Translations under genes and position numbers: made by a program | Notes under the pieces: model-generated | What the model was told of the DNA's origin: nothing | The model's input: the letters and a program-made list of their open reading frames with translations, nothing else | Databases searched by the model: none | In this document: piece by piece, positions 5,811-36,698 of the stretch | How the letters are laid out: each line of letters opens with the position of its first letter | Numbering within the stretch: the stretch's first letter is position 1 | Assembly: GCA_023459215.1 (NCBI GenBank) | Contig: JAEWVF010000018.1 | Location: forward strand, 70,243-134,242 | Direction: 5' to 3' | Source: Chloroflexota bacterium | Lineage (GTDB): Bacteria; Chloroflexota; Anaerolineae; Anaerolineales; Villigracilaceae | Length of the DNA stretch: 64,000 nucleotides

Positions 5811-5821
5811 CTGTAAAAAAT

Positions 5822-13427: not shown

Positions 13428-13456
13428 TTGACGCATATATCCCTTGCATGTATAAT
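13428..13456 (+). promoter_or_regulatory. Near-consensus sigma70 promoter (TTGACG-17 nt-TATAAT) for the 13504-28263 operon
   Basis: ttgacg at 13428-13433, 17-nt spacer, tataat at 13451-13456, AT-rich UP-like region upstream; GAGGA RBS before ATG 13504. Confidence 0.6.
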
Positions 13457-13503
13457 CGCTTTATTCAATTTATTACCCGAATTAACGGGTGTAGAGGACG
13501 CTT

Positions 13504-14325
13504 ATGGCTCTTCGGGGCAACCTTCGGGATTTTACTGTCACCCAGCTTCTGAATTTGATTAATTTAGCCCATAAGACGGGTACTTTGGTGATTGAAGGCC
13601 CGAACGAGGTCGCCAAGGTATCTTTTCGCGATGGAAAGCTGTCCTACGCCCAGATCGGTCAGGATGATACCCGCCTGGCCTCCGTTTTACACAAATCCAA
13701 CCGCCTGACCACCGGCCAGTTGAGAGCCATCCAACTGCGAGCAACCCATGTATCTGATAAGGAACTGGGTTTGCTCTTGATTAATTCCGGTCACATGACT
13801 CAGGATGATATTCTGGCGGCGCTACAGGCTTATTTCACTGAATCTGTGCGCCGTTTGTTTACCTGGGTGGAGGGGTCTTTTCGTTTTGAAAACGAGATGA
13901 TGCCGCCCGAGGATCGCATTACGGTGCGCCTCGACCTTGAAAACCTGATCATTGAAGGCGCCCGCCAGCTTCGTGAGTTTGAGCAGTTACAGGATGAAAT
14001 CCCCAGCCTGGATATGGCGTTGCGCTTCACCGAACGTCCCGGTTCGAATTTGCAAAAGATGAACCTGAGTGTTGAAGAATGGCGGGTGGTTTCTTATATC
14101 AGCCCGAAAAACACCATCCAGCAGATTGCTTCAGCAGCGAAGATGGGCGATATGGAAATCCGGCGCATTGTCTATGGCCTGATCCAGGCTGGCCTGGTCG
14201 AAGTGATGCGCCCCGAAGGCGCCGCCTCGGCTCAGGAAAAGGCGCGCCCTGCTGTTCCCGCTCAGAACCGGGATGAACAGAAGTCCCTTGTTAATCGTTT
14301 AATAACGCGTATTCGCTCGATATAA
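13504..14325 (+). CDS. DUF4388-domain protein (putative GTPase partner/regulator)
   Basis: N-terminal motif LRGNLRDFTVTQLLNLINLAHKTGTLVIEG characteristic of DUF4388; first gene of operon. Confidence 0.65.
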   Translation: MALRGNLRDFTVTQLLNLINLAHKTGTLVIEGPNEVAKVSFRDGKLSYAQIGQDDTRLASVLHKSNRLTTGQLRAIQLRATHVSDKELGLLLINSGHMTQDDILAALQAYFTESVRRLFTWVEGSFRFENEMMPPEDRITVRLDLENLIIEGARQLREFEQLQDEIPSLDMALRFTERPGSNLQKMNLSVEEWRVVSYISPKNTIQQIASAAKMGDMEIRRIVYGLIQAGLVEVMRPEGAASAQEKARPAVPAQNRDEQKSLVNRLITRIRSI

Positions 14326-14350
14326 TTATTATTTTGAAGGAAAAGTAATT

Positions 14351-14893
14351 ATGCAAACGGTCAAAATGGTCGTCACAGGTCCTTTCAGCGCTGGCAAAAC
14401 GGAATTTATCCGTTCTGTAAGTGAAATTGACGTTGTTGCAACTGAGCGAAAGATTTCATCCGATTCTGAAAGAGCCGTGAAACAGGCTACAACAGTCGCC
14501 ATGGATTTTGGTCGTATTACCGTGGACGAAGACCTGGTGCTTTATCTCTTTGGTACCCCAGGCCAAAAGCGTTTCGATTTCATGTGGGAAATTCTTTCGG
14601 AAGGTATGCTTGGCTTTATTGTCATGGTCGATAGCACCCGCCCGGAAACCTTCCGCGAAGCCCGCTCTATTCTGGAAACTTTCCGCGCTTATGCGCCGAC
14701 GCCGTATGTGGTTGCTGCGAACAAACAGGATGTCGATGACGCCTGGGAGTTGGAAGACATGCGCCATGCCCTGCGCCTGGATAACAAGGTGAAACTTTTA
14801 CCGTGTGTTGCCACGGATAAGAACACTGTCAAAAACGTCTTGCTCGAATTGCTTTACAGCATTCTGGCCGAGATGGAAAATACCGAGAAATAA
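14351..14893 (+). CDS. Small P-loop GTPase of the CvnD/MglA ('ATP/GTP-binding protein') type
   Basis: G1 GPFSAGKT, VSEI, G3 LFGTPGQ, G4 ANKQD; 180 aa. Confidence 0.8.
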   Translation: MQTVKMVVTGPFSAGKTEFIRSVSEIDVVATERKISSDSERAVKQATTVAMDFGRITVDEDLVLYLFGTPGQKRFDFMWEILSEGMLGFIVMVDSTRPETFREARSILETFRAYAPTPYVVAANKQDVDDAWELEDMRHALRLDNKVKLLPCVATDKNTVKNVLLELLYSILAEMENTEK

Positions 14894-14909
14894 TTGATAG
14901 AATGCTGCC

Positions 14910-15710
14910 GTGTCCTCAATCACTACTGACCAGGGTATAGTTCATTATGAAGTTTATGGGCGTGGCCGCCCGGTAATTTTGCTTCACGGATGGCTAGGCT
15001 CGTGGGGATTATGGCAGGAGACCATGGCCTATTTAGGCCGTTCATATCGCACTTATGCGCTCGATTTTTGGGGATTTGGCGAGTCAGGAAAAAAGCGCGA
15101 CACCTACGTTGTCCAGGATTTTGTCAGCCTGGTAGACCAGTTTATGGATCGGCTTGGCATCACCCATGCGCCTCTGGTTGGGCACAGCATGGGCGGAACA
15201 GTCAGCTTGTCGGTTGCGATTCAATTTCCACACCGCGTCAGTAAAGTTGTTGTAGTTGGTTCGCCGATTGTTGGCTCATCCCTGGCGATCCCCCTCAAAC
15301 TGGCCGGGTATCGCGCAATCGCCTTTATGTTGTTCAATATGATGTGGGCCTTTCGGGGGGGGATGAAAGTGGCTTCGCCGTTCATTTGCGCTGACCCGCG
15401 GTTCCCGCAGATGATGGATAAAGACCTCTCCAGCACAACCCTCGAATCTTTCCTGCGCAGCATCGCTTCGTTGCGCCGCACCGATTTGCGCCCGATGCTA
15501 TCGGAAGTGAAAGTGCCAACCATGGGCATTTACGGTGGCCGCGATAATATTGTCCACCCAAAGCAATGGCAGCCTCTTTTGCAGGGGGTTCCGCACTCGA
15601 AGATTGTGTACTGGGAGCGGGCGCAGCATTTTGTCATGCTTGATATGTCGAGAGAATTTACTGAAACGCTGAAATCATTTTTGGATGAGGAAGAGAAACC
15701 TACAGGATGA
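14910..15710 (+). CDS. Alpha/beta-hydrolase-fold enzyme (paralog 1, catalytic Ser intact)
   Basis: HGWLGSW oxyanion region, GHSMGG nucleophile elbow, C-terminal His. Confidence 0.8.
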   Translation: MSSITTDQGIVHYEVYGRGRPVILLHGWLGSWGLWQETMAYLGRSYRTYALDFWGFGESGKKRDTYVVQDFVSLVDQFMDRLGITHAPLVGHSMGGTVSLSVAIQFPHRVSKVVVVGSPIVGSSLAIPLKLAGYRAIAFMLFNMMWAFRGGMKVASPFICADPRFPQMMDKDLSSTTLESFLRSIASLRRTDLRPMLSEVKVPTMGIYGGRDNIVHPKQWQPLLQGVPHSKIVYWERAQHFVMLDMSREFTETLKSFLDEEEKPTG

Positions 15711-16339
15711 ATCCTGCTTCCCTTCATTACCACTATCCAAACCAGATGGGGCGTATCTTGTTGTTATCTGGTGATGAGATATTGGGTCGTCCAGGAATGT
15801 CTGCGGTGTTGAATTCAATCCCAGGCGGCGAACAATTTGTTGAGAGCTATCCCAAGGAATCCCTTGACCTGGAATTTCCTTTCGAGTTGGTTTCGGGTTT
15901 GCAGCTTGGCCTGGAAAGGATTTATGGCCCTCATGGTGGCCGAGGCATTTCCCTGCGAATTGGGCGGGCTTGCTTCCAGCAGGGATTGCGCGAGTTTGGG
16001 CCGCTGTTCGGCTTGACCGACCTCGCCTTTCGGCTTCTACCTTTAAAAACCAAGCTCAAGGTGGGCGCGAACGCATTTGCCGATATTTTTAACAAGCATA
16101 GCGACCAACGTGTCCGCATTGAGGAAGATGAACGAAGCATTTTTTGGATCATTGAACGTTGTCCCGTTTGCTGGCAGCGCCATGCTGATGGCCCTTCCTG
16201 CCACCTGGCGGTTGGACTTTTGCAAGAGGCGCTCTATTGGGCGAGTGGTGGTAAGATATTTCAGGTTGAAGAAACACAGTGCTGTGCCTCCGGCGACTCG
16301 CAATGTGTTATTTTGATCGAGAAGATTCCTCTGGGATAA
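15707..16339 (+). CDS. V4R-domain protein (4-vinyl reductase / Bet3-like small-molecule binding domain)
   Basis: ATGA start/stop overlap with upstream gene; conserved Cys pattern CPVC..CH..CCASGD typical of V4R. Confidence 0.65.
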   Translation: MNPASLHYHYPNQMGRILLLSGDEILGRPGMSAVLNSIPGGEQFVESYPKESLDLEFPFELVSGLQLGLERIYGPHGGRGISLRIGRACFQQGLREFGPLFGLTDLAFRLLPLKTKLKVGANAFADIFNKHSDQRVRIEEDERSIFWIIERCPVCWQRHADGPSCHLAVGLLQEALYWASGGKIFQVEETQCCASGDSQCVILIEKIPLG

Positions 16340-16342
16340 CCC

Positions 16343-17614
16343 ATGCTGAAAATAATTTTGCAGGCCAAGCGGCCTATTTCCCCCTTCAACGAACCGGCGC
16401 GAGATTTACGCATCCAAAACCAGCCGCTTTGGCTGTTGCAGCGCGATGCTTTGGCTCCCTATGTAACCCGTGAGTTGGAAATCCCGGCGAACGCGCGGAT
16501 GCCCCAAATGCAGGAACCGATGCTGGTCTACCGCGACAACCTGTTTTTTGACCAGCCTTATATTGATGAGTTTATCCGCCTGGCGACCAAAAAGAACCGC
16601 CCGGTGCGCGCGGCATTTTCGATTGATGATCCCGCTTTTCGTGAACACGCCCTGCCGCTCTCAGTGTCGTATACCCCTGCCGGGAATTTGTACCTGGCTG
16701 ATCTCTGGTATTATCCGCGCGGCCCGGTAGCCGATGTGGACCCGCTCGTTGTTGATATGCAATCTCGAGAAGTTGGTTATTATCATGTTCCTTCCTATAT
16801 GGCCGGCGAACGCGGCGACTTGGTGTTTCAGGTTCCGCTGCGGGCGATGATGGCCATCGATACCTGGGTGCATATCTTTATTGCGGATGTGGTTTTTGGC
16901 TTATTTAAGCGCGGTAACCGTTTTGAAAACCGGCTTGCGAATGATCTGGCCTTTAAATTGAAAGTTGTCGGCACGGCCATTTATGAAGGTCGCCAGATTC
17001 TGGAATGTTCGGAACTGGTAAAAGTTGGCAAAAACTGCATTATTCACCCTGGGGCAATGATTTTTGGGCCGACCACAATTGGGGATAACGTTCACATCGA
17101 CGCTGGCGCGGTGATCGAAAATTGTATTATTGGCAACAATGTCAATGTTTCCCAAGACTGCCAACTGATGCTCTCGGTGGTTGGGGATGGAACTTTCCTG
17201 CCGTTTAAGGCGGCTTTGTTCATGACCACCATCATGGATAATTCGATGGTCGCCCAGAATACGTGTTTGCAGATGTGTGTTGTTGGGCGCAATACGTTTA
17301 TTGGCGCTGGCTCCACTTTTACTGATTACAACCTGATTCCCGCCCCGATCCGCGCTTTAGATGGAAACGATGAATTGAAGCCTTCCAACCGGCCCGTCTT
17401 GGGCGGCTGCGTAGGCCATAACTGCCGGATTGGCGCGGGCATGATTGTTTACCCGGCTCGCACAATTGAATCAGATGTGGTTTTGGCCGCATCCAAAGAA
17501 CGGCGTGTTATTGACAAGAATGTTCGGTTTGAGGACAGCGATCATCATAAGATGAAAACCTCGAACCAGCACAAAGTGCTTTACCAAAAACAACAGGACC
17601 TTGAGTCGTGGTAA
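16343..17614 (+). CDS. Degenerate sugar-nucleotidyltransferase-like N-domain fused to left-handed beta-helix (hexapeptide-repeat) domain
   Basis: N-terminus KIILQAKRPISPF resembles but lacks the GxGxR motif; C-terminal [LIV]G..x.I hexapeptide repeats. Confidence 0.55.
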   Translation: MLKIILQAKRPISPFNEPARDLRIQNQPLWLLQRDALAPYVTRELEIPANARMPQMQEPMLVYRDNLFFDQPYIDEFIRLATKKNRPVRAAFSIDDPAFREHALPLSVSYTPAGNLYLADLWYYPRGPVADVDPLVVDMQSREVGYYHVPSYMAGERGDLVFQVPLRAMMAIDTWVHIFIADVVFGLFKRGNRFENRLANDLAFKLKVVGTAIYEGRQILECSELVKVGKNCIIHPGAMIFGPTTIGDNVHIDAGAVIENCIIGNNVNVSQDCQLMLSVVGDGTFLPFKAALFMTTIMDNSMVAQNTCLQMCVVGRNTFIGAGSTFTDYNLIPAPIRALDGNDELKPSNRPVLGGCVGHNCRIGAGMIVYPARTIESDVVLAASKERRVIDKNVRFEDSDHHKMKTSNQHKVLYQKQQDLESW

Positions 17615-17617
17615 AGC

Positions 17618-18709
17618 ATGGATACATTTGCATTCATCATCCATCCTATTGACCCGAAGCGCGATGTCAGTAGGAAATACCCCCTGCTGGGCAAATACCT
17701 GACAGAAGGCCAGATAAATTTTTTCTCCACATTCTTTCCGCCGGTATATCTCTCCCAAATCGACGGGATTGTTTCCAAGGCAACCGGCAAAGAGATTAAA
17801 GGTTGGTTTGTTGCCTGCCCTTTTACACCGCGGCGGATGTTGGAATTGCCCGAGAAAATGGTGTATCATAAAATCATTCAGACCGGGAGAATGGCAGAGA
17901 AACTTGGCGCCAATATTCTGGGTTTGGGCGCGTTTACCTCGGTTGTCGGCGACTCGGGCGCTACAATTGCGAAGGCGTTGGATGTACCGGTGACAACCGG
18001 CGACTCTTATACAATTGCCGTGGCGGTCGATGCAATTAAAGAAGCGGCGCGGATCATGGATATTCCGCTTGAATCGGCGACCGCTGCCGTGGTTGGCGCT
18101 ACCGGAACAATAGGAAAAGTCTGCGCAGAACTTCTCGCAGATGCCGTAGGTGAGTTATACTTGGTAGGTCGCCGTGTTGATGCATTGGATGCCTTGCGGG
18201 AAAGAATCGCCAGTCATTCGAAGGCACGGTTATATACCAGCACAAAAATGGATGTATTATCGCGGGCGCAGTTGATTTTGACTGTAACCAGCGCTGTCCA
18301 TGATGTGATCAGGCCGGAACATTTGCAGCCAGGAAGTGTGGTCTGTGATGTCGCCCGGCCTCGCGATGTATCTGCAATGGTCGCAGCGGCGCGAGACGAT
18401 ATACTTGTGATTGACGGCGGCATGGTGGATGTGCCTGGTCCTGTCGATTTTCACTTTAACTTTGGTTTTCCTGCGGGAAAAGCCTATGCCTGTATGGCCG
18501 AAACCATTGCCCTGGCGCTTGAAGGCCGTTTTGAAGATTACACCATCGGCAAGGATATCTCCCGGGCTCGGGTAGAAGAGATTTACGCAATTGCAAACAA
18601 GCATGGCTTTCGTTTGAGCGGATTTCGTTCGTTCGAAAAAGAAGTCACGCAAGAAAAAATTGAAATCATACGCCGCAATGCACATGCCCGCCAGCGGCGA
18701 CAGAATTGA
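17618..18709 (+). CDS. Acyl-ACP reductase (AAR)-like NAD(P)-dependent oxidoreductase
   Basis: Colinear similarity to cyanobacterial AAR: MDTFAFIIHP / LGLGAFTSV / AAVVGATGTIGK Rossmann / SVVCDVARP catalytic-Cys region. Confidence 0.65.
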   Translation: MDTFAFIIHPIDPKRDVSRKYPLLGKYLTEGQINFFSTFFPPVYLSQIDGIVSKATGKEIKGWFVACPFTPRRMLELPEKMVYHKIIQTGRMAEKLGANILGLGAFTSVVGDSGATIAKALDVPVTTGDSYTIAVAVDAIKEAARIMDIPLESATAAVVGATGTIGKVCAELLADAVGELYLVGRRVDALDALRERIASHSKARLYTSTKMDVLSRAQLILTVTSAVHDVIRPEHLQPGSVVCDVARPRDVSAMVAAARDDILVIDGGMVDVPGPVDFHFNFGFPAGKAYACMAETIALALEGRFEDYTIGKDISRARVEEIYAIANKHGFRLSGFRSFEKEVTQEKIEIIRRNAHARQRRQN

Positions 18710-18721
18710 TGGAGGCTCTTT

Positions 18722-19627
18722 ATGGGAAAAGCCCGCCTGCTCATTACCGAAGATGATGTAGACATCTCTAACATGCTCAAGATTTATTTTTCCGGCTTGG
18801 GCTATGATGTCGACGTGGCCATGCGCGGTTCAGAAGCGCTGGAAAAAACACGTCAGGTATTGCCACATCTGATTGTGTTGGATATCATGCTGCCCGATAT
18901 TGACGGGTATGAAGTGTGCCGCACGTTGCGCACCAATACACGTACCAGTCATATTCCGGTCATCTTCTTGACCCAAAAGGATGAGCGCAGCGATCGCTTG
19001 CAGGGCCTCGAACTTGGGGCGGATGATTACATCACCAAACCTTTCGACATTGAAGAATTGAAGCTGCGCGTCCAGGGGGCCATTCGTCGCTCTGAGCGCG
19101 AGAGCCTCACCGATCCGCGCTCTGGTTTGCCGGCCGGACGTTTGATTGAGGAACAACTTCGCAAGATTATCCGCGAAACCGGCTGGTCTTATCTCGATAT
19201 CCGCATCAACAATTTCGAAGCCTTCAAAGATGTTTACGGCTTTGTCGCGGGTGATGATGTCCTGCGCTTTACCGGAATGTTGATTGGCGAAGTTCTCGAT
19301 GAGCTTGGCACCTCTGCCGATTTCATCGGCCACGCTGGCGGCGACAATTTCATCGTGATTACCACTGAGGGCGCGACTCCGGCCATCAGCGCCGCGCTGA
19401 AGAACCGTTTTGCTGAACAGGTTCAGACCCATTACAACTTTATGGATCGCCAGCAGGGTTATATTCTCGCCCCAACCTCTGATGGCCAGACTGAGAAATT
19501 CCCCCTGATGACTTTTGCAATCGGTACGGTGATGCCAACCCAGCAGTCGTTTGCTGATATTCGTGAAATTACTGAACTGGCTGCCGAAGCGCGCCGTCAA
19601 GATGCTGCCAATGCGGTAAAAGGATAA
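18722..19627 (+). CDS. Response-regulator receiver fused to degenerate GGDEF domain (GGDNF)
   Basis: REC motifs (EDD, D in DIMLPDIDG, KP), GGDEF-like fold with HAGGDNF instead of GG(D/E)EF. Confidence 0.75.
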   Translation: MGKARLLITEDDVDISNMLKIYFSGLGYDVDVAMRGSEALEKTRQVLPHLIVLDIMLPDIDGYEVCRTLRTNTRTSHIPVIFLTQKDERSDRLQGLELGADDYITKPFDIEELKLRVQGAIRRSERESLTDPRSGLPAGRLIEEQLRKIIRETGWSYLDIRINNFEAFKDVYGFVAGDDVLRFTGMLIGEVLDELGTSADFIGHAGGDNFIVITTEGATPAISAALKNRFAEQVQTHYNFMDRQQGYILAPTSDGQTEKFPLMTFAIGTVMPTQQSFADIREITELAAEARRQDAANAVKG

Positions 19628-19633
19628 CATCAA

Positions 19634-22600: not shown

Positions 22601-25600
22601 GACGCCCCGCGAGATGGCAAACGCCCTGACGCTGCCACGTTCGACACGCTGGAGATTTTTGCGTCCCAGGTTCAAATTGCAATCAGCAATGCCAAGCGCT
22701 ATGCCGACCTTGGCCGCGAAATGCAGAATTTGTCTGTTGAAGTGCAGCGCCAAAAGAGCCTGGTCGGATTTAGCCAGCGTAACCTGCCGGTCTTGTTGAA
22801 TAAAGACCTTGACCAGACCATTGCGATTAATTATCTCAATCAACGCGCCCGCCATATTCGGGCTGGCTTGAACCTGACCGAGTCAATCAGTCGCCAGATT
22901 AACTTTGGCTCGGCTTTGTATACCCTTGGTCAGCAGGTTTTGTTTAGTTTTGATATGTCGATTTCGCTGGTGGCCAAGGATACCCCTGAAGGTCCCCAGA
23001 TTGTCCATATGCTCGGCAGTTTGCCGCGCGGCGTTAACCCCGATGCCATGTTTGGCCAGCGCAATCCCCTGCGTTCCTGCATCCAGACCGGCGAAACGCT
23101 AATCTCCGCCAACCTGGATGAAGACGAAACCTGGCACGACACGCCTTTCCTGACCGCGCTCAAGGCCAAATCTTTTATTTGTTTACCCCTGGTGGTGAAC
23201 AATAAACCTGTCGCCGCGATTTTGGCCACAGATACCGAGCCGATGCCGGTATTGTCCAAGGATGATCACCAGGTTTATATCCAGATTGCCCGGCAGCTTT
23301 CGATTATTGTTCAGAATATCGGTTTGTTGAGCGAAACTCGCCAGCGCCTCGAAGAAGTTAATCTGCTGCTCGATTTCAGCCGCCGCTTGAGCGGTTTGAG
23401 CCCGACTGAAATCTTGCAGGCCTTGCTCGATAGCTCATTGCGTGTTGTTTCGCCTGCCCATGCCGGTGTGGTTTTGCTTTGGGATGAGTCTGAAGAAGTC
23501 CTTGTGCCAAAAGCGGCCTCCAACTACGTCGATAATGAAAGCACCATGGAAATTACCTATCGCGTGGGCGAAGGTTTGCCGGGCCGCGTATTTGCCAGCC
23601 GCCATTCCCAGATTATCGACGAAATTAATTTCACGGCGGATTACAACCTTTCTGCGGATAGCTTGTTGCTCTATCGTAAGGCTACCGGCGGACGTTTGCC
23701 CGTTTCGTCGATTGCTGTCCCGATCCAGACCAATGAACGCAGCATGGGCATCCTTATCCTCGATAACTTCAACACTACGGCTGCATTCCGCCAGGACGAT
23801 GAAGCTATTCTGTCATCGCTAACCCAGCAGGTTGCCCTGTCGCTTGAGAATGTCCGCCTGGTACAGGCCACCCAGGAGCGCGCAGCCCAACTGCAGGCCC
23901 TTAACTCGGTGGCGGCTGCCCTGAGTTCATCCCTCAACCGCGACGAACTGATTGCCTCGCTCCTTGACCGTATCAGCACGCTGATTGCCTTCGATACGGC
24001 CATTCTGTGGATGCGCTCCGAAGACCAGTTGGTGGTTGCCGAAGCGCGTGGTTTTAGCGACACCGAAGACCGCAAGGGGCTCTCGGTTTCGGTTGAAGAT
24101 AGTATCCTGCTCAAACAGATGATTCAGTCCGGGCAGGCAATTTCAGTGGGTGATGTTCGCACTGACCCGCGCTTCTCCTCGCTGGTCGAAGCCAAGAATT
24201 TATCCTGGCTGGGCTTGCCGATCATGGTCAAGGGGAAGGTGATTGGCGTTATCGCCCTTGAAAAAGCCGAGATGTATTACTACACCAACGACCAAATCCA
24301 ACTGGCGGCGACGTTTGCCAGCCAGGCGGCGGTGGCGATTGATAACGCCAACCTGTTTGAAGAGAGTCTGCGCCGCACCTCTGAACTGGATGAGCGCTCA
24401 CAGCGTTTGGCCTTGCTGAACCAGTTCTCCTCTGACTTGAGCGGTTCACTGAATGCGGATCAGGTTTTGCGCTTGACAGCCAGCCAGTTGACGCGTGCGC
24501 TTGGCGCGGATTCTGCCATGGTGGTTATGCTCGACCGGAATGATAAATCTTTCCTGCTGGCGGTTCTGCCCGAAGAGAACGACCACCCATCCATGTACCG
24601 CGCTCTGCCTTCTTCGCAAATCATGTCCGAATTGCGCGAGTCGCAGACAGTTTACGTTGTCGATAACATCAGTGGTCATCCTGAACTGCAGCCCTTTGCA
24701 GAAATCACCGAAGGCGCCAGTTCCTTGCTGATTTTGCCGGTTTTCAGCTCGCAAAGCAACTATGCAATTATCGTGCTGACCAATGATGTTCATGTTTTCT
24801 CGTCCACTGAGATCGAAATTGCCAGAACCCTTGGAAACCAGGCAGCCATTGCCTTGGAAAATGCCGACCTGTATCAATCGACCCTGGCAACCGCCGAGCG
24901 CTTGTCGATTTTGAACCAGGTCAGTTTTGAGATTGGTTCCAGCCTCGACCCCGAACAGGTTTACCACGCTGTTCACGAGGCGGTCGCCAAACTGATGCCT
25001 CTCGATGCCTTTGTGATTGCCCTTCACGATGAAGAGACCAACGAAGTGGATGGCGTTTATATCGTCGATATGGGCCAACGCATCACCGGCATTCGCCTAC
25101 CTTATGGACAGGGTCTAAGCGGCAACGTGATTGCCACCGGCCAGCCGGTTTTGACCTTGACCTCCTCCGAAGCCGATAACCAGGGAGCGGTTACGGTAGG
25201 CGAAAAGGGAACTCCCAACTCGATTATTGCCGTGCCGATGTTCCAGGGCAGCAAAACCATCGGTATGCTCTCCGCCCAAAGCTATCAGCATAACGCTTAT
25301 TCAGAGAGCGATATTCAGTTGTTGAGCACGTTTGCCAACCAGGCCATGGTTGCCATCCAGAATGGCCGCCTGTTTGCCGAAACCCAACAGATGACTTCCA
25401 CGCTTGAACAGCGCGTTATCGAGCGTACGGCTGAACTGGAGCGTGAACAGCGCAACACAGAAACACTTCTGCGCATTCTCACCGAAGTTTCGTCGAGTCT
25501 TGACCTTGACCGCGCTCTCAGCCGCACCCTGGCCTTGTTGAACGATGCCATTGGCGCCGAACAGGGCACTATCATGCTGCTCAACCCCGAAGACAACATG

Positions 25601-27088
25601 CTTCACTACCGCGCCGGTTACGGTTATCTCTCCGAATCTGCCGAACAGGGTGATTTGAAACCGCAGCAAAACGCGTTCAAGTTGAAGATCGGTGAAGGCC
25701 TGGCCGGGTGGGTGGTGAAAAACCGCCAATCGGTGCTGGTTGAAGACCTGTACACCGACCCGCGCTGGATGGTCTCACAAGGCTCACAGAACCACCGCAG
25801 CGCGGTGATTGCCCCCCTGACGGTGGGCGAGGACGTTATTGGCGCGATCATGGTCTACCACAGGCGCTTGGCGTTCTTCTCTGACGATTCACTCGAAATG
25901 GTCAAGGCGATTGGTTCGCAGGTGGCTATTGCCATTAACAACGCCCAGTTGTACGAATTGATCCGCGACCAGGCGGAGCGCCTTGGCTCCTACCTGCGCT
26001 CCCAGCAGATGGAAGCCAGCCGCCAAACGGCCATCCTCGAAGCGGTTGCCGATGGCGTCCTGGTTACGAATTCGTCCAACACCATTAGTTTCGTCAATCC
26101 CTCTGCGGAGAAGATTCTAAGCATCAACTCGGCCCAAATTTCTGGCCGCTCGCTGGAAAACTTCGCCGGTTTGTTTGGCAAAAGCTCCCAGACCTGGATG
26201 CAAACTGTGCGCGACTGGTCTGAGAACTCCGTCAGCCATAGCGGCGAAACGTATGCAGAGCAAATCAGTCTGGATAACGGTCGTGTGGTTTTGGTGCATC
26301 TGGCCCCGGTAGTCTGGCAAAACGAATTTCTCGGTACGGTTTCCATCTTCCGTGATATTACCCACGAGGTGGAAGTGGACCGGCTCAAGTCCGAGTTTGT
26401 GGCCACCGTCAGCCATGAATTGCGCACCCCGATGACCTCCATCCGCGGCTATGTTGATATCCTGCTGATGGGCGCGGCTGGCGAACTTACCCAGAGCCAA
26501 CTGCACTTCCTTGAAATTGTTAAGAACAACACCGAGCGTTTGAACATCCTGGTCAATGATTTGCTCGATATTTCGCGGATCGAAACCGGGCGCGTCACCC
26601 TCAGTCTGCAACCGATGGATTTGCGCGAGGTGACCGACGAAGTGGTTGCCGAGGTTCTGCGGCGTTCCCAGGAAGAGAACAAGCCGATGGCAATCGAAGT
26701 CGATGCCCAACCCAATTTGCCGCTCGCCCTGGTCGACCCGGATCGCATTCAGCAGATCATAGGCAATTTGGTAGATAATGCCTATAATTACACCCCGAAA
26801 GATGGCAAGATCACCATCCACATCCACAGCGATGGCTCGGATGTACAGGTTGACGTTCAGGATACCGGGGTGGGCATTCCTCTGGAAGACCAGGAGCGTG
26901 TCTTTGAACGTTTCTTCCGCGGCGAAGATCCTTTGGTGCTGGCAACCCCCGGAACAGGCCTGGGACTCTCGATTGTCTCCCAACTGGTCGAGATGCATCA
27001 TGGTAAGATTTGGATGAGAAGTTCCGGCTTGCCCGGCGATGGAAGCACGTTCTCCTTCACCGTGCCAGCCGATAAGAATGAGGAGTAG
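19634..27088 (+). CDS. Giant sensor histidine kinase: N-terminal TM segment, roughly 8-10 tandem GAF domains, PAS domain, HisKA, HATPase_c
   Basis: 2484-aa continuous ORF; H-box SHELRTPMTSIRGY, N/G1/G2 boxes DNAYNYT, QDTGVGIP, GTGLGLSIV. Confidence 0.9.
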   Translation: MLEGQSFAWGIGLLIFGLVFILLVWSFLRIIPRVRPAQIQPVQHSLPQMQGNDDAVLIVQTGGRISYVNEIAKEWFDLAEGEQPSLDRIGRRVRPGETFLEICAVQGQARFSINGRLIDAISYPLPGEIPSILVAMRAAKSTLMVGSQEGLSENALKTVADFGQAVTSNLSIEATVQSILTHIEQLVASDFLELKVWNETLENFSIYRISGADGANRKVIIEKESQFGDYEKHVFSAKQELVIDNTRMASHVRFDFKGSSVPPMGSYIGLPLETAGQQVGLLEVGVVPTNGFSQDDVSLLKMVSGQAAVAVRNARLYETQEKWTTQLLGLTKLSQAVGSLRDIKDLFSSLIDGLSPLFNVNILGFLLYDEQRRMLEGQPPFFGLSSQVVDIYKTVVRPGSPAEKLIFSQDILSSQNASLDPAWDELGLRDMAQAASMRDTTLIPLISAGRFLGYLQLSNHKFGHSQLNTEELQLLNLVANQVAAMIDNALLVQQARQRNQRSEAMRRLASLVSSTATLDEILRFSIQEASTLLRADMGAAFLLDEHEGSMHVHVDSVYGVDIENSKPLAKINVKPAVFYQTVAGSQRSFVSGNLTKDRRVLPLYRAFVRRLKIESCIVVPLVVRGQGIGELMFGAREQELFTNSDLQMAAIIGSQLAVAIENARYSQHSRQDVNLQAEQVIHVSRIARELTATNDLRELLRLIYEESLKVTRADCGSVMFFNFSEIEDDQQQARTVVMALGHSPDADLLWREHISVLKHEPLVLRTDGDSAQPPHDGIERVVLTPITYQDNLFGLIELHASQADVFDGPVLETLRTLGIQAALAIANAVRYREQRQRIESLRTRAETLGSLFEVSQKLGLDRPLPDILTMIAESIQKSTQFDVILISLLDGESGLLQRTSAVGVSPETFAQLQEHQQPWASLVQLLKPEFEHGNLYFIPHEQIPIVSRDLQLVTLIEGAGETPNAWHPEDLLLVPVMDQHNNPLGLISVDAPRDGKRPDAATFDTLEIFASQVQIAISNAKRYADLGREMQNLSVEVQRQKSLVGFSQRNLPVLLNKDLDQTIAINYLNQRARHIRAGLNLTESISRQINFGSALYTLGQQVLFSFDMSISLVAKDTPEGPQIVHMLGSLPRGVNPDAMFGQRNPLRSCIQTGETLISANLDEDETWHDTPFLTALKAKSFICLPLVVNNKPVAAILATDTEPMPVLSKDDHQVYIQIARQLSIIVQNIGLLSETRQRLEEVNLLLDFSRRLSGLSPTEILQALLDSSLRVVSPAHAGVVLLWDESEEVLVPKAASNYVDNESTMEITYRVGEGLPGRVFASRHSQIIDEINFTADYNLSADSLLLYRKATGGRLPVSSIAVPIQTNERSMGILILDNFNTTAAFRQDDEAILSSLTQQVALSLENVRLVQATQERAAQLQALNSVAAALSSSLNRDELIASLLDRISTLIAFDTAILWMRSEDQLVVAEARGFSDTEDRKGLSVSVEDSILLKQMIQSGQAISVGDVRTDPRFSSLVEAKNLSWLGLPIMVKGKVIGVIALEKAEMYYYTNDQIQLAATFASQAAVAIDNANLFEESLRRTSELDERSQRLALLNQFSSDLSGSLNADQVLRLTASQLTRALGADSAMVVMLDRNDKSFLLAVLPEENDHPSMYRALPSSQIMSELRESQTVYVVDNISGHPELQPFAEITEGASSLLILPVFSSQSNYAIIVLTNDVHVFSSTEIEIARTLGNQAAIALENADLYQSTLATAERLSILNQVSFEIGSSLDPEQVYHAVHEAVAKLMPLDAFVIALHDEETNEVDGVYIVDMGQRITGIRLPYGQGLSGNVIATGQPVLTLTSSEADNQGAVTVGEKGTPNSIIAVPMFQGSKTIGMLSAQSYQHNAYSESDIQLLSTFANQAMVAIQNGRLFAETQQMTSTLEQRVIERTAELEREQRNTETLLRILTEVSSSLDLDRALSRTLALLNDAIGAEQGTIMLLNPEDNMLHYRAGYGYLSESAEQGDLKPQQNAFKLKIGEGLAGWVVKNRQSVLVEDLYTDPRWMVSQGSQNHRSAVIAPLTVGEDVIGAIMVYHRRLAFFSDDSLEMVKAIGSQVAIAINNAQLYELIRDQAERLGSYLRSQQMEASRQTAILEAVADGVLVTNSSNTISFVNPSAEKILSINSAQISGRSLENFAGLFGKSSQTWMQTVRDWSENSVSHSGETYAEQISLDNGRVVLVHLAPVVWQNEFLGTVSIFRDITHEVEVDRLKSEFVATVSHELRTPMTSIRGYVDILLMGAAGELTQSQLHFLEIVKNNTERLNILVNDLLDISRIETGRVTLSLQPMDLREVTDEVVAEVLRRSQEENKPMAIEVDAQPNLPLALVDPDRIQQIIGNLVDNAYNYTPKDGKITIHIHSDGSDVQVDVQDTGVGIPLEDQERVFERFFRGEDPLVLATPGTGLGLSIVSQLVEMHHGKIWMRSSGLPGDGSTFSFTVPADKNEE

Positions 27089-27090
27089 TG

Positions 27091-27465
27091 ATGGCAAAAA
27101 TTGTGATTGCTGAAGATGAACCGGATATTCGCGAACTGATCGCGTTTACCCTGCGTTTTGCCGGTCATGAAGTCGTAACGGGCGCCAACGGACAGGAAGG
27201 CTATGAGTTGGCCAAACAGCATAAACCTGATTTGATTATGCTGGATGTGCGCATGCCCAAACTGACAGGCTATGAAGCCTGCCAGCGCATCAAATCCGAG
27301 CCGGATATTGCCCATATCCCGGTGATTTTTCTCTCGGCCAAGGGCCAGGAATCGGAAATCGAGCAGGGTCTCTCGGTTGGTGCTGAGCAATATTTGCTCA
27401 AACCGTTTGCGCCCGACCAATTGACCCAGCAAGTCCGCGAAGTTTTAACCAAATACGGGAAATAG
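27091..27465 (+). CDS. Single-domain CheY-like response regulator
   Basis: AEDEPDIR..D in LIMLDVRMP..KP; starts 3 nt after kinase stop. Confidence 0.85.
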   Translation: MAKIVIAEDEPDIRELIAFTLRFAGHEVVTGANGQEGYELAKQHKPDLIMLDVRMPKLTGYEACQRIKSEPDIAHIPVIFLSAKGQESEIEQGLSVGAEQYLLKPFAPDQLTQQVREVLTKYGK

Positions 27466-27477
27466 TTTTTACAAAAA

Positions 27478-28263
27478 ATGAGCGCAATTCTTCTGGATGG
27501 TGGCATAGTTCATTACGAGGTGATTGGGCGTGGACGTCCAATTATCTTCCTGCACGGCTGGATCGGCTCTTGGCGTTATTGGATTCCGGCCTTGCAATCT
27601 GCCTCCACCAACTTCCGCGCTTACGCGGTCGATTTATGGGGCTTTGGCGATACCGCCCGTGAGCCGGACCGCTATTCGCTCGACAGGCAGATGACCTTGC
27701 TTGACCAGTTCTTGCAGGAAATGGGGATCGGCAAGGTTGCCCTGGTTGGGCATGGCTTGGGTGCGATTATCGGTCTTCATTACACCCTGCGCCATCCCAA
27801 TACCGTCGACCGGATCATGGCGTTGAATGCGCCGATCGACCTGACCTCGGTCAACGCCCGCCTGCGCACCGATTCGCTTTCCAACCTGACCGACTGGCTG
27901 CTTAGCAAAACGCCGGAGGCCGAACCCGCCCGGGTGGATGGCCTGCGCGCCGATCCGCTGGCGATTTCTGAGTCGTTCAACAATTCCGAGCAGTTCACCC
28001 TGTCTGGCAAGCTGCTTTCGATGAACAATTCCTGCCTGATGGTCTACGGCCAGAGCGACCCGGCCATTACCGTCCCGATGCTGGACCCCAACCTGACGCC
28101 CTCGATGCTGCACCTGTTGCTGCTCGAGCAAACCGGTCATTTCCCCATGCTCGAAGATACCGCGCGTTTTAACCGGCTGTTGACCGACTTCCTGGCGCTC
28201 GAGTCGGGAGATACCCCGCGCAATTTGCAGCTAAAAGAAGAATGGAAGCGCCGCGTGCGCTAA
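27478..28263 (+). CDS. Alpha/beta-hydrolase-fold protein (paralog 2, nucleophile Ser replaced: GHGLGA)
   Basis: About 50% identical over the aligned N-terminal ~100 aa to the 14910-15710 product but GxSxG is GHGLG; His retained. Confidence 0.75.
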   Translation: MSAILLDGGIVHYEVIGRGRPIIFLHGWIGSWRYWIPALQSASTNFRAYAVDLWGFGDTAREPDRYSLDRQMTLLDQFLQEMGIGKVALVGHGLGAIIGLHYTLRHPNTVDRIMALNAPIDLTSVNARLRTDSLSNLTDWLLSKTPEAEPARVDGLRADPLAISESFNNSEQFTLSGKLLSMNNSCLMVYGQSDPAITVPMLDPNLTPSMLHLLLLEQTGHFPMLEDTARFNRLLTDFLALESGDTPRNLQLKEEWKRRVR

Positions 28264-28281
28264 TTGCGTAGCCCGATATAC

Positions 28282-28307
28282 AAAAACGCGCTTTCGGGCG
28301 CGTTTTT
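28282..28307. terminator. Bidirectional rho-independent terminator ending the operon
   Basis: aaaaacgcgc-tttcgg-gcgcgttttt. Confidence 0.75.
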
Positions 28308-29423: not shown

Positions 29424-29664
29424 GATTTCTCTCCTTGTACCGTTATTGAGTGAAAAACTACCTTGTTAGTATAAAACAAATTTGATGTTGAAACAATATT
29501 TGTGCGCCGGCGGGAGAGTTTTTGATGGAATGCTTGTGTAAATCTTCACAAATCGGGAATTTTATTTTATAATATTTACGATAAATATTATAAATATTAT
29601 CCTAATAGACTTCTTGTATAAGTGCTATCACAAGTCCTGCCTGCGCCAGTGCCGCCGGCACAGG

Positions 29665-29765: not shown

Positions 29766-29803
29766 CAAACCAATTATTACTTTTGCAAGATGTTTAATAA
29801 AGG

Positions 29804-36692: not shown

Positions 36693-36698
36693 TAAACG

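What the first reader, a model, noticed from the sequence alone, without database searches (positions are those of the whole stretch)
13428..28307. Tightly packed 11-gene operon: a conservon-like GTPase module wired to a giant multi-GAF kinase and an AAR-like lipid-reductase enzyme set (candidate undescribed system)
From the consensus promoter at 13428 to the terminator at 28282, eleven co-oriented genes sit 3-16 nt apart or overlap by 4 nt. In order they are: DUF4388, CvnD/MglA-type GTPase, alpha/beta hydrolase, V4R, pseudo-nucleotidyltransferase-LbH, AAR-like reductase, REC-GGDEF(GGDNF), a 2484-aa multi-GAF/PAS histidine kinase, CheY, and an alpha/beta hydrolase paralog. The logic resembles the actinobacterial conservon (sensor-kinase-like CvnA, Roadblock CvnB, DUF742 CvnC, GTPase CvnD). 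Here the parts differ (V4R, DUF4388, a true HisKA kinase), and enzymes that could make or consume fatty aldehydes or acyl compounds are embedded between the GTPase and the two-component parts. I am not aware of a described system with this composition.
Basis: partly seen in the sequence, partly recalled or inferred. Interest (0 to 1): 0.85.

Follow-up and report, generated by a model that had tools for sequence, protein, structure and literature searches.

The report
Conserved Chloroflexota kinase–GTPase signalling operon
This is a real ten-gene operon, kept in the same order in about 80 species of filamentous Chloroflexota, that joins a giant sensor kinase and two response regulators to a Ras-like GTPase and several enzyme-like proteins, three of which look catalytically dead; its function is unknown and I found no description of it.

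Summary
There are ten genes, not eleven, and the gaps are 25, 16, -4, 3, 3, 12, 6, -1 and 12 nt. All domain calls were reproduced. The window is an Anaerolineales (Chloroflexota) MAG.

The cluster is not a chance juxtaposition. In 80 species-level genomes gene order is kept: PATAN 62/69, GTPase 62/69, ABH1 64/71, V4R 64/75, AAR-like 75/77, REC-GGDEF 74/74, kinase 68/68 and CheY 60/60. A near-consensus sigma-70 promoter sits 40-50 nt upstream of gene 1 in 58/62 loci.

Deeper relatives show a core of NT-LbH protein, REC-pseudoGGDEF, multi-GAF kinase and, where the locus reaches that far, the second hydrolase, usually with V4R. The PATAN-GTPase-hydrolase module, the AAR-like reductase and CheY are accessory.

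Three "enzymes" are probably pseudoenzymes. The NT-LbH protein lacks the NTP motif. GGDEF reads GGDNF or VGPDF. The second hydrolase has Gly at the nucleophile. The AAR-like reductase and the first hydrolase keep their catalytic residues.

The GTPase carries the MglA group 2-5 (CvnD-type) signature, but there is no Roadblock, DUF742 or CvnA, so this is not a conservon.

Best reading: an integrated two-component plus G-protein signalling system with ligand-handling accessory proteins. Function is unproven.

The parts
13428..13456 (+). sigma-70-type promoter, TTGACG-17 nt-TATAAT, 47 nt upstream of the g1 start codon
   Evidence: 11/12 match. The same or a near-identical element (TTGACG or TTTACA, 16-18 nt, TATAAT) lies mostly 39-58 nt upstream of g1 in 58 of 62 orthologous loci.
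13504..14325 (+). g1: PATAN (DUF4388/PatA_N) protein, 273 aa, with no REC domain; the C-terminal ~90 aa give only weak winged-helix-like matches
   Evidence: PF14332 E=1.3e-26. The C-terminal region gives only weak wHTH hits and no DUF742 hit. Present in 62/69 testable loci.
14351..14893 (+). g2: small Ras-superfamily GTPase, 180 aa, with the MglA-family group 2-5 (CvnD-like) signature
   Evidence: ATP_bind_1 1.8e-21, Ras 1.3e-10. GPFSAGKT, TT in G2, FGTPGQ and NKQD are invariant in 67 orthologs, median identity 89%. The signature is defined in PMC4316618. T. thermophilus MglA matches over the full length, E=2e-6.
14910..15710 (+). g3: alpha/beta hydrolase 1 (ABH1), 266 aa, GTG start, intact catalytic triad
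   Evidence: Abhydrolase_1 2.2e-28. GHSMGG Ser, Asp212 and His240 are invariant in 70 orthologs, and the HG oxyanion motif at residues 26-27 supports the long ORF.
15707..16339 (+). g4: V4R-domain protein, 210 aa, with five invariant Cys (152, 155, 165, 192, 200); 4-nt overlap with g3
   Evidence: PF02830 37.6 bits against a cutoff of 31. Cys conservation in 67 and 28 sequences. Weak profile hits to the V4R structures MJ1460, MopR and PoxR. Zn-Cys4 sites in V4R/TRAPPC3 are described in PMC10933270.
16343..17614 (+). g5: 423-aa protein with a nucleotidyltransferase-like N domain (no NTP motif) and a left-handed beta-helix; probable pseudoenzyme or regulatory subunit
17618..18709 (+). g6: AAR/PigE-N-like NAD(P)-dependent acyl-thioester reductase, 363 aa
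   Evidence: PigE N-terminal region 8.3e-64 and AAR TIGR04058 6.8e-32, both below the family cutoffs. PDB 4ppm 1e-37 and AAR 6jzq 7e-26, with the catalytic Cys aligned. The Cys and GATGxIG are invariant in 74-75 orthologs. Present in 75/77 loci.
18722..19627 (+). g7: response regulator, REC plus a degenerate GGDEF-like domain (GGDNF), 301 aa
   Evidence: REC 2.4e-27, GGDEF 4.6e-9. The phospho-acceptor Asp, Thr and Lys are invariant, and GGDNF occurs in 75/79 orthologs. Deeper Chloroflexota relatives have VGPDF or TGPDF at that position. Present in 74/74 loci.
19634..27088 (+). g8: 2484-aa histidine kinase with an N-terminal hydrophobic (TM-like) segment, at least 11 GAF domains, PAS, HisKA and HATPase_c
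   Evidence: Pfam. Present in 68/68 loci. Length is 2470-2491 aa in 53 of 58 complete orthologs despite about 50% identity. H-box SHELRTP is read from the sequence.
27088..27465 (+). g9: single-domain CheY-like response regulator, 125 aa; its start overlaps the g8 stop by 1 nt
   Evidence: REC 2.4e-30. Lies directly after the kinase in 60/60 testable loci.
27478..28263 (+). g10: alpha/beta-hydrolase paralog (ABH2), 261 aa, with Gly at the nucleophile position (GHGLGA) and a conserved C-terminal EWKRRVR tail; probable pseudo-hydrolase
   Evidence: Abhydrolase_1 2e-20. Gly aligns with the HDWG nucleophile of a dehalogenase-type hydrolase. Gly occurs in the window, L020, L030, L094, L088 and L177; Ser occurs only in L093. 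Its N-terminus follows CheY in about 50 loci.
28282..28307 (+). intrinsic-terminator-like hairpin, AAAAACGCGC-(loop)-GCGCGTTTTT, possibly bidirectional
   Evidence: Read. The fold gives dG -14.4 kcal/mol, z = -3.94, and 0 of 200 shuffles fold as well. The consensus scanner did not call it.

Best explanation
The operon encodes one integrated cytoplasmic signalling system of Chloroflexota. Shown: it has a conserved promoter, tight or overlapping gene junctions, and an order kept across about 80 species. Inferred: the giant kinase, with at least 11 GAF domains, one PAS domain and a canonical HisKA/HATPase core, integrates intracellular small-molecule signals. It then phosphorylates the two receiver proteins encoded on either side of it, REC-pseudoGGDEF and a CheY-like protein. 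None of the ten proteins has a recognisable DNA-binding output, so the output is most likely protein-protein regulation. The proteins always found with the kinase are the NT-LbH protein (eIF2B-gamma/epsilon- and GMPPA/B-like fold, no NTP motif) and the REC-pseudoGGDEF regulator. The hydrolase paralog with Gly at its nucleophile, and usually a Cys-rich V4R protein, accompany them wherever the sequence reaches. I read these as ligand-binding or regulatory subunits rather than enzymes. Two genuine enzymes, an AAR/PigE-like acyl-thioester reductase and a Ser-Asp-His hydrolase, are optional. They would make or remove an acyl-derived (aldehyde-type) ligand for that sensor complex. In Anaerolineales the system is transcriptionally fused to a PATAN protein and an MglA group 2-5 GTPase. 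I take this pair to be the downstream switch, acting on a membrane or polar machine by analogy with PATAN-PilB/PilC and with MglA.
For: Operon reality: ten co-oriented genes with gaps of -4 to 25 nt; the promoter is conserved in 58/62 loci; a terminator hairpin follows g10. Synteny in 80 species-level genomes: 62/69, 62/69, 64/71, 64/75, 75/77, 74/74, 68/68 and 60/60 for g1-g9. Core versus accessory parts: L088 (Roseiflexaceae) is V4R-LbH-REC-kinase-ABH. L175 and L176 show V4R-LbH-REC and a kinase of 3164-3522 aa that runs off the locus. L093 lacks V4R. L094 and L177 lack the reductase. L065-type loci start at g5 with their own promoter-like motif. Functional residues are under selection: the GTPase G1-G4 motifs, the REC Asp/Thr/Lys, the reductase Cys and GxGxxG, the ABH1 triad and the five V4R Cys are all invariant. 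Pseudoenzyme calls rest. Independent recurrence of the logic: in a distant branch of the g5 family (24-30% identity; the few named hits are Chloroflexi and Candidatus Pacebacteria MAGs), the gene order is NAD_binding_4 thioester-reductase-like, then g5-like, then 7TM-GAF-HisKA kinase, then CheY. The reductase is present in 25/52 loci with enough flank, the kinase in 17/38 and both in 12/30; 12 of the 15 both-flank loci at 49% identity or more to the query have both, against none of 15 below that. A non-homologous reductase therefore occupies the same place. Precedents: GAF or P450 accessory proteins modulate the kinase of actinobacterial G-protein systems (PMC13343842). PATAN binds PilB/PilC (bioRxiv 10.1101/2021.06.11.447907). 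PATAN-MglA neighbourhoods have been noted before (PMC4316618).
Against: There is no experimental or interaction evidence, so every functional link is inferred from gene context. The GTPase module is absent from clusters that otherwise look complete, so coupling between kinase and GTPase is not obligatory. The reductase and V4R are each dispensable in some lineages, which weakens the idea of an enzyme-made ligand. The pseudoenzyme calls rest on missing motifs. LbH active sites lie at subunit interfaces and vary, so catalysis by g5 cannot be excluded. Only seven ABH2 sequences reached the nucleophile position. No type IV pilus, Roadblock or other effector genes were seen among the large ORFs of the window. 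The ligand and the output are unknown.
Confidence: 0.45

Rival explanations
1. The cluster is chiefly a biosynthetic or lipid-remodelling operon. Acyl-thioester reductase, hydrolases and an LbH acyltransferase would make a fatty aldehyde/alcohol-derived envelope or signalling lipid. The two-component genes and the GTPase would only regulate or localise the pathway.
For: g6 keeps the catalytic Cys and the NAD(P) motif, and g3 keeps a full triad. g5-family genes pair with a reductase in three settings: AAR-like here, in L092 as an isolated pair, and NAD_binding_4-type in the distant branch. LbH proteins such as LpxA and LpxD use acyl-ACP (established knowledge).
Against: Three of the five 'enzymes' lack catalytic signatures. 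The reductase is missing from several intact clusters. No acyl carrier, ligase, aldehyde-consuming enzyme (ADO, aminotransferase, alcohol dehydrogenase) or transporter is present. The signalling genes, not the enzymes, are the invariant part.
Confidence: 0.2
2. Two functionally independent units happen to be co-transcribed in Anaerolineales. One is a PATAN-GTPase(-ABH1-V4R) polarity or motility switch. The other is a kinase/response-regulator system with its accessory proteins. There is no direct signalling between them.
For: The upstream module is absent in 7 of 69 Anaerolineales loci and in the deeper Chloroflexota clusters. In those Anaerolineales loci g5 has its own conserved promoter-like motif. 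PATAN-MglA pairs occur in many other contexts (PMC4316618).
Against: The fusion is kept with 3-4 nt junctions in 62/69 species under a single conserved promoter and with no conserved internal promoter. V4R sits with either half, depending on lineage. The GTPase has no MglB/Roadblock partner in the cluster, so a regulator must come from elsewhere, plausibly from its neighbours.
Confidence: 0.25
3. The genes are a chance juxtaposition or an assembly artefact.
For: None found.
Against: The identical gene order occurs on independent contigs from several samples and in 80 species-level genomes with a conserved promoter.
Confidence: 0.01

Closest known systems
Actinobacterial G-protein systems (conservons, CvnA-D, with accessory CvnE P450 or CvnF GAF proteins)
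   Same: An operon that joins a histidine kinase to an MglA-family group 2-5 GTPase (GTPGQ; Thr instead of the Arg finger). GAF-based sensing and enzyme-like accessory proteins are attached to the kinase (PMC4316618, PMC13343842).
   Different: There is no Roadblock (CvnB), no DUF742 (CvnC) and no CvnA-type kinase (HAMP, C-terminal LPxR). Instead it has a bona fide HisKA kinase with two REC partners, PATAN, V4R, NT-LbH, a thioester reductase and two hydrolases. The host is Chloroflexota, not Actinomycetota. The GTPase is separable from the kinase core.
MglA/MglB/RomR polarity module with Frz input (Myxococcus), and PATAN-MglA neighbourhoods
   Same: A small MglA-family GTPase lies next to a PATAN protein and is linked to phosphorelay proteins with single-domain receivers.
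   Different: The GTPase is the group 2-5 type (no intrinsic Arg finger; GTPGQ rather than TVPGQ). There is no MglB. The input is a giant GAF kinase rather than a chemosensory array. No motility genes are nearby.
PatA-type PATAN-REC response regulators of cyanobacteria (PixG, PixE, PatA)
   Same: The PATAN (PF14332) domain is the likely output domain. In Synechocystis it binds PilB1 and PilC.
   Different: g1 has no REC domain. Phosphorylation-dependent control would have to come in trans, for example from the CheY-like g9.
Cyanobacterial acyl-ACP reductase (AAR) and the N-terminal thioester-reductase domain of PigE
   Same: Homologous over the full length, with a conserved catalytic Cys and a Rossmann motif. 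Both known enzymes reduce acyl thioesters to aldehydes (PDB 6jzq, 4ppm; PMC8341465).
   Different: Scores fall far below both family cutoffs. There is no ADO partner and no aminotransferase domain. The gene sits in a signalling operon and is dispensable in some lineages.
NT-LbH regulatory pseudoenzymes (eIF2B gamma/epsilon, GMPPA) and the active enzymes ST0452, GlmU and GMPPB
   Different: There is no NTP-binding signature, no Pfam NTP_transferase match and no conserved catalytic His. This is a narrow family whose named members are mostly Chloroflexota MAGs (one Candidatus Pacebacteria and one Methanosarcina-labelled MAG also appear), and it is linked to GAF kinases and reductases.
V4R / TRAPPC3 (Bet3) superfamily; RsbQ-RsbP (alpha/beta hydrolase partnering a PAS sensor; recalled from my own knowledge, not tested here)
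   Same: V4R has a Cys cluster like the Zn site of PoxR and Thor-TRAPPC3, and the fold forms a ligand cavity. A hydrolase-fold protein serves as an accessory to a PAS/GAF sensor.
   Different: No sequence-level link to TRAPPC3 or RsbQ was detected here. ABH2 lacks the nucleophile, whereas RsbQ keeps its triad.

Membership tests
Conservon / actinobacterial G-protein system | CvnD-type small GTPase (MglA group 2: GTPGQ; Thr in place of the G2 Arg) | tested here: met
   FGTPGQ and TT are invariant. Criteria are from PMC4316618. The signature is shared by groups 2-5, so it does not by itself assign group 2.
Conservon / actinobacterial G-protein system | CvnB Roadblock/LC7 (MglB-like) protein in the operon | tested here: not met
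   None of the ten proteins hits Roadblock in Pfam. Gaps of at most 25 nt leave no room for another gene.
Conservon / actinobacterial G-protein system | CvnC (DUF742) protein | tested here: not met
   No DUF742 hit. The g1 C-terminus gives only weak generic wHTH matches (E 0.03-0.09).
Conservon / actinobacterial G-protein system | CvnA-type kinase (TM, HAMP, C-terminal LPxR) and an Actinomycetota host | tested here: not met
   g8 is TM-like segment + GAFx11 + PAS + HisKA + HATPase_c and ends ...FTVPADKNEE. Related loci named by their records are almost all Chloroflexota MAGs; one is labelled Candidatus Nitrotoga.
MglA family, groups 2-5 | P-loop, G2 Thr replacing the Arg finger, GTPGQ, and NKxD | tested here: met
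   with definitions.
MglA family, groups 2-5 | coupled MglB gene | tested here: not met
   Absent from the cluster. The rest of the genome could not be searched.
PatA-type response regulator | PATAN domain | tested here: met
   PF14332 E=1.3e-26, 93 bits against a cutoff of 25.
PatA-type response regulator | C-terminal REC domain | tested here: not met
   No REC hit in g1.
Long-chain acyl-ACP reductase (AAR, TIGR04058) | score at or above the equivalog cutoff | tested here: not met
   111 bits against a cutoff of 449.7.
Long-chain acyl-ACP reductase (AAR, TIGR04058) | catalytic Cys and Rossmann motif | tested here: met
   AYACMAE aligns to FACFAE of 6jzq. The Cys is invariant in 74/75 orthologs. 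That this Cys is the catalytic residue is my own knowledge of AAR.
Long-chain acyl-ACP reductase (AAR, TIGR04058) | adjacent aldehyde-deformylating oxygenase | tested here: not met
   No such protein among the ten genes or the neighbouring ORFs scanned.
PigE (prodigiosin MAP aminotransferase/reductase) | N-terminal reductase domain plus C-terminal class-III aminotransferase | tested here: not met
   Only the N-terminal 362 positions of the 837-position model match: 216 bits against a cutoff of 850.
Diguanylate cyclase (GGDEF) | GG[D/E]EF active-site motif | tested here: not met
   GGDNF in 75/79 orthologs. VGPDF or TGPDF in deeper relatives. The upstream D-x-...-N-D segment is shortened (read).
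Sugar-1-phosphate nucleotidyltransferase / LbH acyltransferase (GlmU, ST0452) | two-domain NT + LbH fold | tested here: met
Sugar-1-phosphate nucleotidyltransferase / LbH acyltransferase (GlmU, ST0452) | N-terminal G-x-G-[ST]-R ... K nucleotide-binding signature | tested here: not met
   The N-terminus reads KIILQAKRPISPFNEPARDL; family consensus xIxPFxEPARDL. No NTP_transferase hit even at E<=1.
Sugar-1-phosphate nucleotidyltransferase / LbH acyltransferase (GlmU, ST0452) | acyltransferase catalytic base in the LbH domain | tested here: inconclusive
   There is no invariant His across 46 family members. LbH active sites vary and lie between subunits.
alpha/beta hydrolase (catalytic) | nucleophile-Asp-His triad | tested here: met
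   For g3: Ser93, Asp212 and His240 are invariant in 70 orthologs.
alpha/beta hydrolase (catalytic) | nucleophile in the G-x-Nu-x-G elbow (g10) | tested here: not met
   GHGLGA. Gly is found in 6 of 7 sequences that reach this position.
V4R domain | Pfam PF02830 above the gathering score, and a Cys cluster | tested here: met
   37.6 bits against 31. Five Cys are invariant. The whole-fold check failed: the single-sequence AF2 model reached only pLDDT 50.

The most novel reading that the evidence does not exclude
The operon is a self-contained bacterial G-protein pathway. In it, the MglA-type GTPase, which lacks any MglB/Roadblock partner, would be regulated by homologs of eukaryotic GEF-complex subunits: a V4R protein (the prokaryotic relative of TRAPPC3/Bet3) and an NT-LbH pseudoenzyme (the fold of eIF2B gamma/epsilon). 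These would act under the control of a phosphorelay and an acyl-derived ligand. That would be the first functional link between V4R and a small GTPase outside eukaryotes.
Probability: 0.08. Interest if true: 0.85.

Novelty: new variant of a known kind. Interest (0 to 1): 0.6.

Why it matters
Anaerolineales are among the most abundant filamentous bacteria in sediments, anaerobic digesters and activated sludge, yet almost nothing is known about how they sense and respond. This operon is one of their best-conserved multi-gene signalling units: the GTPase has a median identity of 89% across the order.

If the reading is right, it extends histidine kinase plus small G protein signalling, so far studied only as the actinobacterial conservon, to a second phylum with a different parts list. 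It would also give a concrete case of several pseudoenzymes recruited as signalling subunits. Finally, it offers a bacterial test bed for the proposed ancestry of TRAPP and eIF2B-type GTPase regulators.

It also corrects database annotation. Members of the g5 family are labelled 'multidrug transporter' or as GlmU-like enzymes.

Tried and rejected
(1) Structure of the V4R protein. The single-sequence AF2 model had pLDDT 50 and was not used for fold search.

(2) Sequence searches of PDB. PATAN gave nothing useful. V4R gave nothing as a single sequence and only marginal V4R hits as a profile.

(3) RsbQ/D14-like identity of the hydrolases. PDB hits are generic esterases, epoxide hydrolases and dehalogenases, and RsbQ is not among the 60 best hits shown. 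I keep RsbQ only as an analogy from memory.

(4) Anti-phage defence system. PADLOC gave only generic REC matches. Vertical conservation across an order also argues against this.

(5) RNA elements. There are no Rfam families at gathering score and no tRNAs in the window.

(6) Conservon membership was rejected; see the membership test.

(7) Alkane biosynthesis (AAR plus ADO) was rejected because there is no ADO and the score is far below the AAR cutoff.

(8) Literature. Five searches that combined PATAN/DUF4388, V4R, MglA, small GTPases, GAF kinases and Chloroflexota/Anaerolineae returned no description of this cluster. The library lacks most subscription journals.

(9) More ABH2 sequences. The 10-kb flank limit stops about 150 nt short of the nucleophile codon in standard-length clusters, so only seven sequences could be read.

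Full report
**1. What is in the sequence**

Between 13504 and 28263 the + strand carries ten long ORFs and nothing else of substance. The gaps are 25, 16, -4, 3, 3, 12, 6, -1 and 12 nt.

Pfam and NCBIfam reproduce every domain call:
- g1: PATAN/DUF4388 (PF14332, 1.3e-26).
- g2: a 180-aa small GTPase (ATP_bind_1 1.8e-21, Ras, Arf).
- g3: an alpha/beta hydrolase.
- g4: V4R, above the gathering score.
- g5: a 423-aa hexapeptide/LbH protein whose first 216 residues match no family.
- g6: a reductase matching the N-terminal half of PigE (8.3e-64) and cyanobacterial AAR (6.8e-32), both far below the curated cutoffs.
- g7: REC plus a weak GGDEF match.
- g8: a 2484-aa kinase with 11 GAF matches, PAS, HisKA and HATPase_c.
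- g9: a CheY-like receiver.
- g10: a second alpha/beta hydrolase, about 30% identical to g3.

The promoter-like site at 13428-13456 (TTGACG-17-TATAAT, 11/12) is the best in the region. The terminator at 28282-28307 was not called by the scanner. It folds as an 11-bp hairpin with dG -14.4 kcal/mol and z = -3.9.

**2. Source and conservation**

The exact g6 protein lies on a 185-kb metagenomic scaffold and on several other contigs with the same gene order. Homologs of g5 are named Anaerolineae, Anaerolineales or Chloroflexota MAGs.

A scan of one genome per GTDB species returned 80 loci with g5 at 72-96% identity, nearly all labelled Anaerolineales or Anaerolineae. tblastn and ORF-level blastp of the window proteins against these loci show the same order and strand almost everywhere. 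Counting only loci whose flanks reach the expected position:

| Gene | Present / testable loci |
|---|---|
| PATAN (g1) | 62/69 |
| GTPase (g2) | 62/69 |
| ABH1 (g3) | 64/71 |
| V4R (g4) | 64/75 |
| AAR-like (g6) | 75/77 |
| REC-GGDEF (g7) | 74/74 |
| Kinase (g8) | 68/68 |
| CheY directly after the kinase (g9) | 60/60 |

The N-terminus of ABH2 follows CheY in about 50 loci.

The sigma-70-type promoter is itself conserved. TTGACG or TTTACA, then 16-18 nt, then TATAAT lies mostly 39-58 nt upstream of g1 in 58 of 62 loci.

**3. Core and accessory parts**

Seven Anaerolineales loci (L032, L036, L040, L042, L059, L065, L073) lack g1-g4. In L065 the genes upstream of g5 are unrelated: PCMT and a STAND NTPase. 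These loci share their own conserved motif (TGGAATAAT, extended -10-like) in front of g5.

A search of 1.84 billion representatives shows that the g5 family is narrow. Only 64 clusters reach E<=1e-30, many of them fragments, with full-length relatives down to about 25% identity. Contexts of the deeper relatives:
- L088 (Roseiflexaceae): V4R - LbH - REC - 2482-aa multi-GAF kinase - hydrolase.
- L176: V4R - LbH - REC - kinase of 3164 aa.
- L175: a V4R homolog without the Cys cluster - LbH - REC - kinase of 3522 aa.
- L093: the full set without V4R.
- L094 and L177: the full set without the reductase. The L177 kinase is only 1404 aa.
- L092: an isolated LbH + AAR-like pair.
- L087 and L089: stand-alone LbH.

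The invariant association is therefore NT-LbH + REC-pseudoGGDEF + multi-GAF kinase, with ABH2 wherever the sequence reaches it and V4R usually present. PATAN-GTPase-ABH1, the reductase and CheY are lineage-specific additions or losses.

**4. A second, independent occurrence of the same logic**

In the most distant branch of the g5 family (24-30% identity; the few named members are 'Chloroflexi bacterium' and 'Candidatus Pacebacteria' MAGs), a metagenome scan gave 80 loci. I clustered the immediate neighbours and annotated the representatives. A recurrent co-oriented set emerged: NAD_binding_4 ('male sterility', thioester-reductase-type SDR, about 378 aa), then g5-like, then a 7TM-GAF-HisKA kinase (about 726 aa), then a CheY-like receiver.

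The reductase is present in 25 of 52 loci with enough upstream sequence. The kinase is present in 17 of 38 with enough downstream sequence. Both are present in 12 of 30. Of the 15 both-flank loci at 49% identity or more to the query, 12 have both; none of the 15 below that does.

A reductase of a different fold but the same chemistry (acyl thioester to aldehyde or alcohol) thus sits in the position that the AAR-like gene holds here. This is the best evidence that the NT-LbH protein, a thioester reductase and a GAF kinase/receiver pair work together.

**5. Which proteins look active**

Alignments of 62-89 orthologs give the following.

*Residues kept:*
- GTPase: GPFSAGKT, TT (G2), FGTPGQ and NKQD are invariant, with median identity 89%. 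GTPGQ plus Thr in place of the G2 arginine is the stated signature of MglA-family groups 2-5, which include CvnD (PMC4316618).
- ABH1: Ser, Asp and His are invariant.
- V4R: five Cys are invariant. This is consistent with the Zn-Cys4 site described for PoxR and Thor-TRAPPC3 (PMC10933270).
- AAR-like reductase: the Cys that aligns with the AAR active-site Cys and the GxGxxG motif are invariant.
- Both receivers keep Asp, Thr/Ser and Lys.

*Signatures lost:*
- (a) The GGDEF motif is GGDNF in 75/79 orthologs and VGPDF or TGPDF in deeper relatives. The upstream metal/substrate segment is shortened, and no RxxD I-site precedes the motif.
- (b) g10 has Gly at the nucleophile elbow (GHGLGA). This Gly aligns with the HDWG nucleophile of a dehalogenase-type hydrolase. 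Gly is found in six of the seven sequences that reach this position, including the Roseiflexaceae one at 32% identity; only L093 has Ser. ABH2 also carries a conserved basic C-terminal tail (EWKRRVR).

I therefore treat g5, g10 and the C-terminal domain of g7 as probable pseudoenzymes. Catalysis by the LbH domain cannot be excluded from sequence alone.

**6. The kinase**

g8 has an N-terminal hydrophobic segment, a canonical H-box (SHELRTP) and a complete ATPase domain. Its length is strikingly constrained. 53 of 58 complete Anaerolineales orthologs are 2470-2491 aa although they are only about 50% identical, so the number and spacing of GAF domains is fixed within the order. Deeper lineages range from 1404 to 3522 aa.

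**7. Interpretation**

None of the ten proteins has a recognisable DNA-binding output. The g1 C-terminus gives only marginal winged-helix matches. The most economical reading is a post-translational signalling system. A cytoplasmic multi-GAF/PAS kinase feeds two receivers. A set of ligand-binding or regulatory subunits (NT-LbH, pseudo-hydrolase, V4R) is permanently associated with it. Two real enzymes (thioester reductase, ABH1) could make or remove an acyl-derived ligand. In Anaerolineales, a PATAN protein plus an MglA-type GTPase serves as the downstream switch.

Three precedents make each step plausible:
- GAF and P450 accessory proteins modulate the conservon kinase (PMC13343842).
- The PATAN domain is the output domain that binds PilB1/PilC in Synechocystis.
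- PATAN-MglA neighbourhoods have been noted before.

All of these links are inferences from context; none is shown. The main rivals are a biosynthetic operon with attached regulators and two independent units that are merely co-transcribed. Both remain open (see rivals).

**8. Comparison with known systems**

The closest described system is the actinobacterial conservon/AGPS. The GTPase type and the kinase-plus-G-protein logic are shared. Roadblock, DUF742 and the CvnA kinase type are absent, and the phylum differs, so membership fails.

The cluster is also none of the following:
- An MglAB module: there is no MglB, and the GTPase is not group 1.
- A PatA-type regulator: g1 has no REC domain.
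- An AAR/ADO alkane pathway.
- A diguanylate cyclase system.
- A PADLOC defence system.

Five literature searches found no description of this cluster. Public annotations of g5 homologs ('multidrug transporter', 'GlmU-related') are uninformative.

**9. Verdict**

This is a real, strongly conserved and apparently undescribed signalling operon. It is a new variant of the bacterial 'two-component system plus small G protein' theme. Its interpretation is partly right on the GTPase type, novelty and synteny. It needs correction on the conservon analogy, on the 'enzyme set' (largely pseudoenzymes, with an optional reductase) and on what forms the core. Interest is moderate to high: the composition is unusual and testable, but function and output remain unknown.

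Noticed in passing
window 19634-27088 and orthologs in L007-L086: The kinase length is almost fixed: 2470-2491 aa in 53 of 58 complete orthologs at about 50% identity. Deeper Chloroflexota relatives range from 1404 to 3522 aa. This suggests a fixed GAF-array architecture within the order.
   Followed up: partly
window 28231-28263 (C-terminus of g10); also L020, L088, L093, L094, L177: ABH2 ends in a conserved basic tail, (L/M)KEEWKRRVR, kept even at 32% overall identity. It may be a docking peptide.
   Followed up: no
L040, L042, L059, L036, L065, L073, L032: about 10-40 nt upstream of g5: Loci that lack g1-g4 share a conserved motif, GATTTTTGCAATTCTGTGGAATAAT (extended -10-like TGGAATAAT), in front of g5. 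This looks like an alternative promoter for the shorter operon.
   Followed up: partly
L175 9207-9857: The V4R homolog in this deep-branching cluster (40% identical to g4) has lost four of the five otherwise invariant Cys residues. It sits next to a 3522-aa kinase.
   Followed up: no
window 14910-15710 versus L001 7407-8093: The public gene call for g3 starts 38 codons downstream (228 aa). The longer GTG-start ORF contains the conserved HG oxyanion motif (LLHGW at residues 24-28), so the public start is probably wrong.
   Followed up: yes
L013 (Candidatus Nitrotoga MAG) and L087 (Methanosarcina sp. MAG): An Anaerolineales-type cluster fragment sits in a bin labelled Nitrotoga, and a g5-family gene sits in a bin labelled Methanosarcina. 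The first is probably binning contamination. The second could be contamination or horizontal transfer.
   Followed up: no
P0005, P0060, P0118, P0310, P0313, P0317, P0344 (g5 homologs): NCBI names several g5-family proteins 'multidrug transporter'. The fold is NT + LbH with no membrane segments, so this is a propagated misannotation.
   Followed up: yes
window 4095-6679: A fatty-acid kinase pair, FakA-like (Dak2/FakA_C) and a DegV fatty-acid-binding protein, lies 7 kb upstream of the operon, followed by RecG and a CoaD-like gene. I found no conserved linkage to the cluster; the upstream regions differ between species.
   Followed up: partly
window 28327-31057: Immediately downstream on the opposite strand are two tandem cytochrome b561-type (Ni_hydr_CYTB) membrane proteins, then an NDH-2-type oxidoreductase on the + strand with its own 11/12 promoter-like site at 29545.
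   Followed up: no
window 35481-38588 and 46596-51511: An acyl-CoA dehydrogenase with ETF beta and alpha subunits, and further on a cytochrome P450 and a DNA photolyase. These look like ordinary metabolic genes unrelated to the cluster.
   Followed up: no
window 18830-19765 (- strand): A 311-aa antisense ORF lies entirely inside g7 and the start of g8. g7 is conserved in frame on the + strand in 79 orthologs, so I take this ORF to be spurious; I did not test it directly.
   Followed up: partly
L092 10001-12472: In another Anaerolineae genome, a g5 homolog (50% identity) and an AAR-like homolog (63% identity) form an isolated, abutting two-gene pair with no kinase or GTPase nearby. This supports a direct functional link between these two proteins.
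   Followed up: partly
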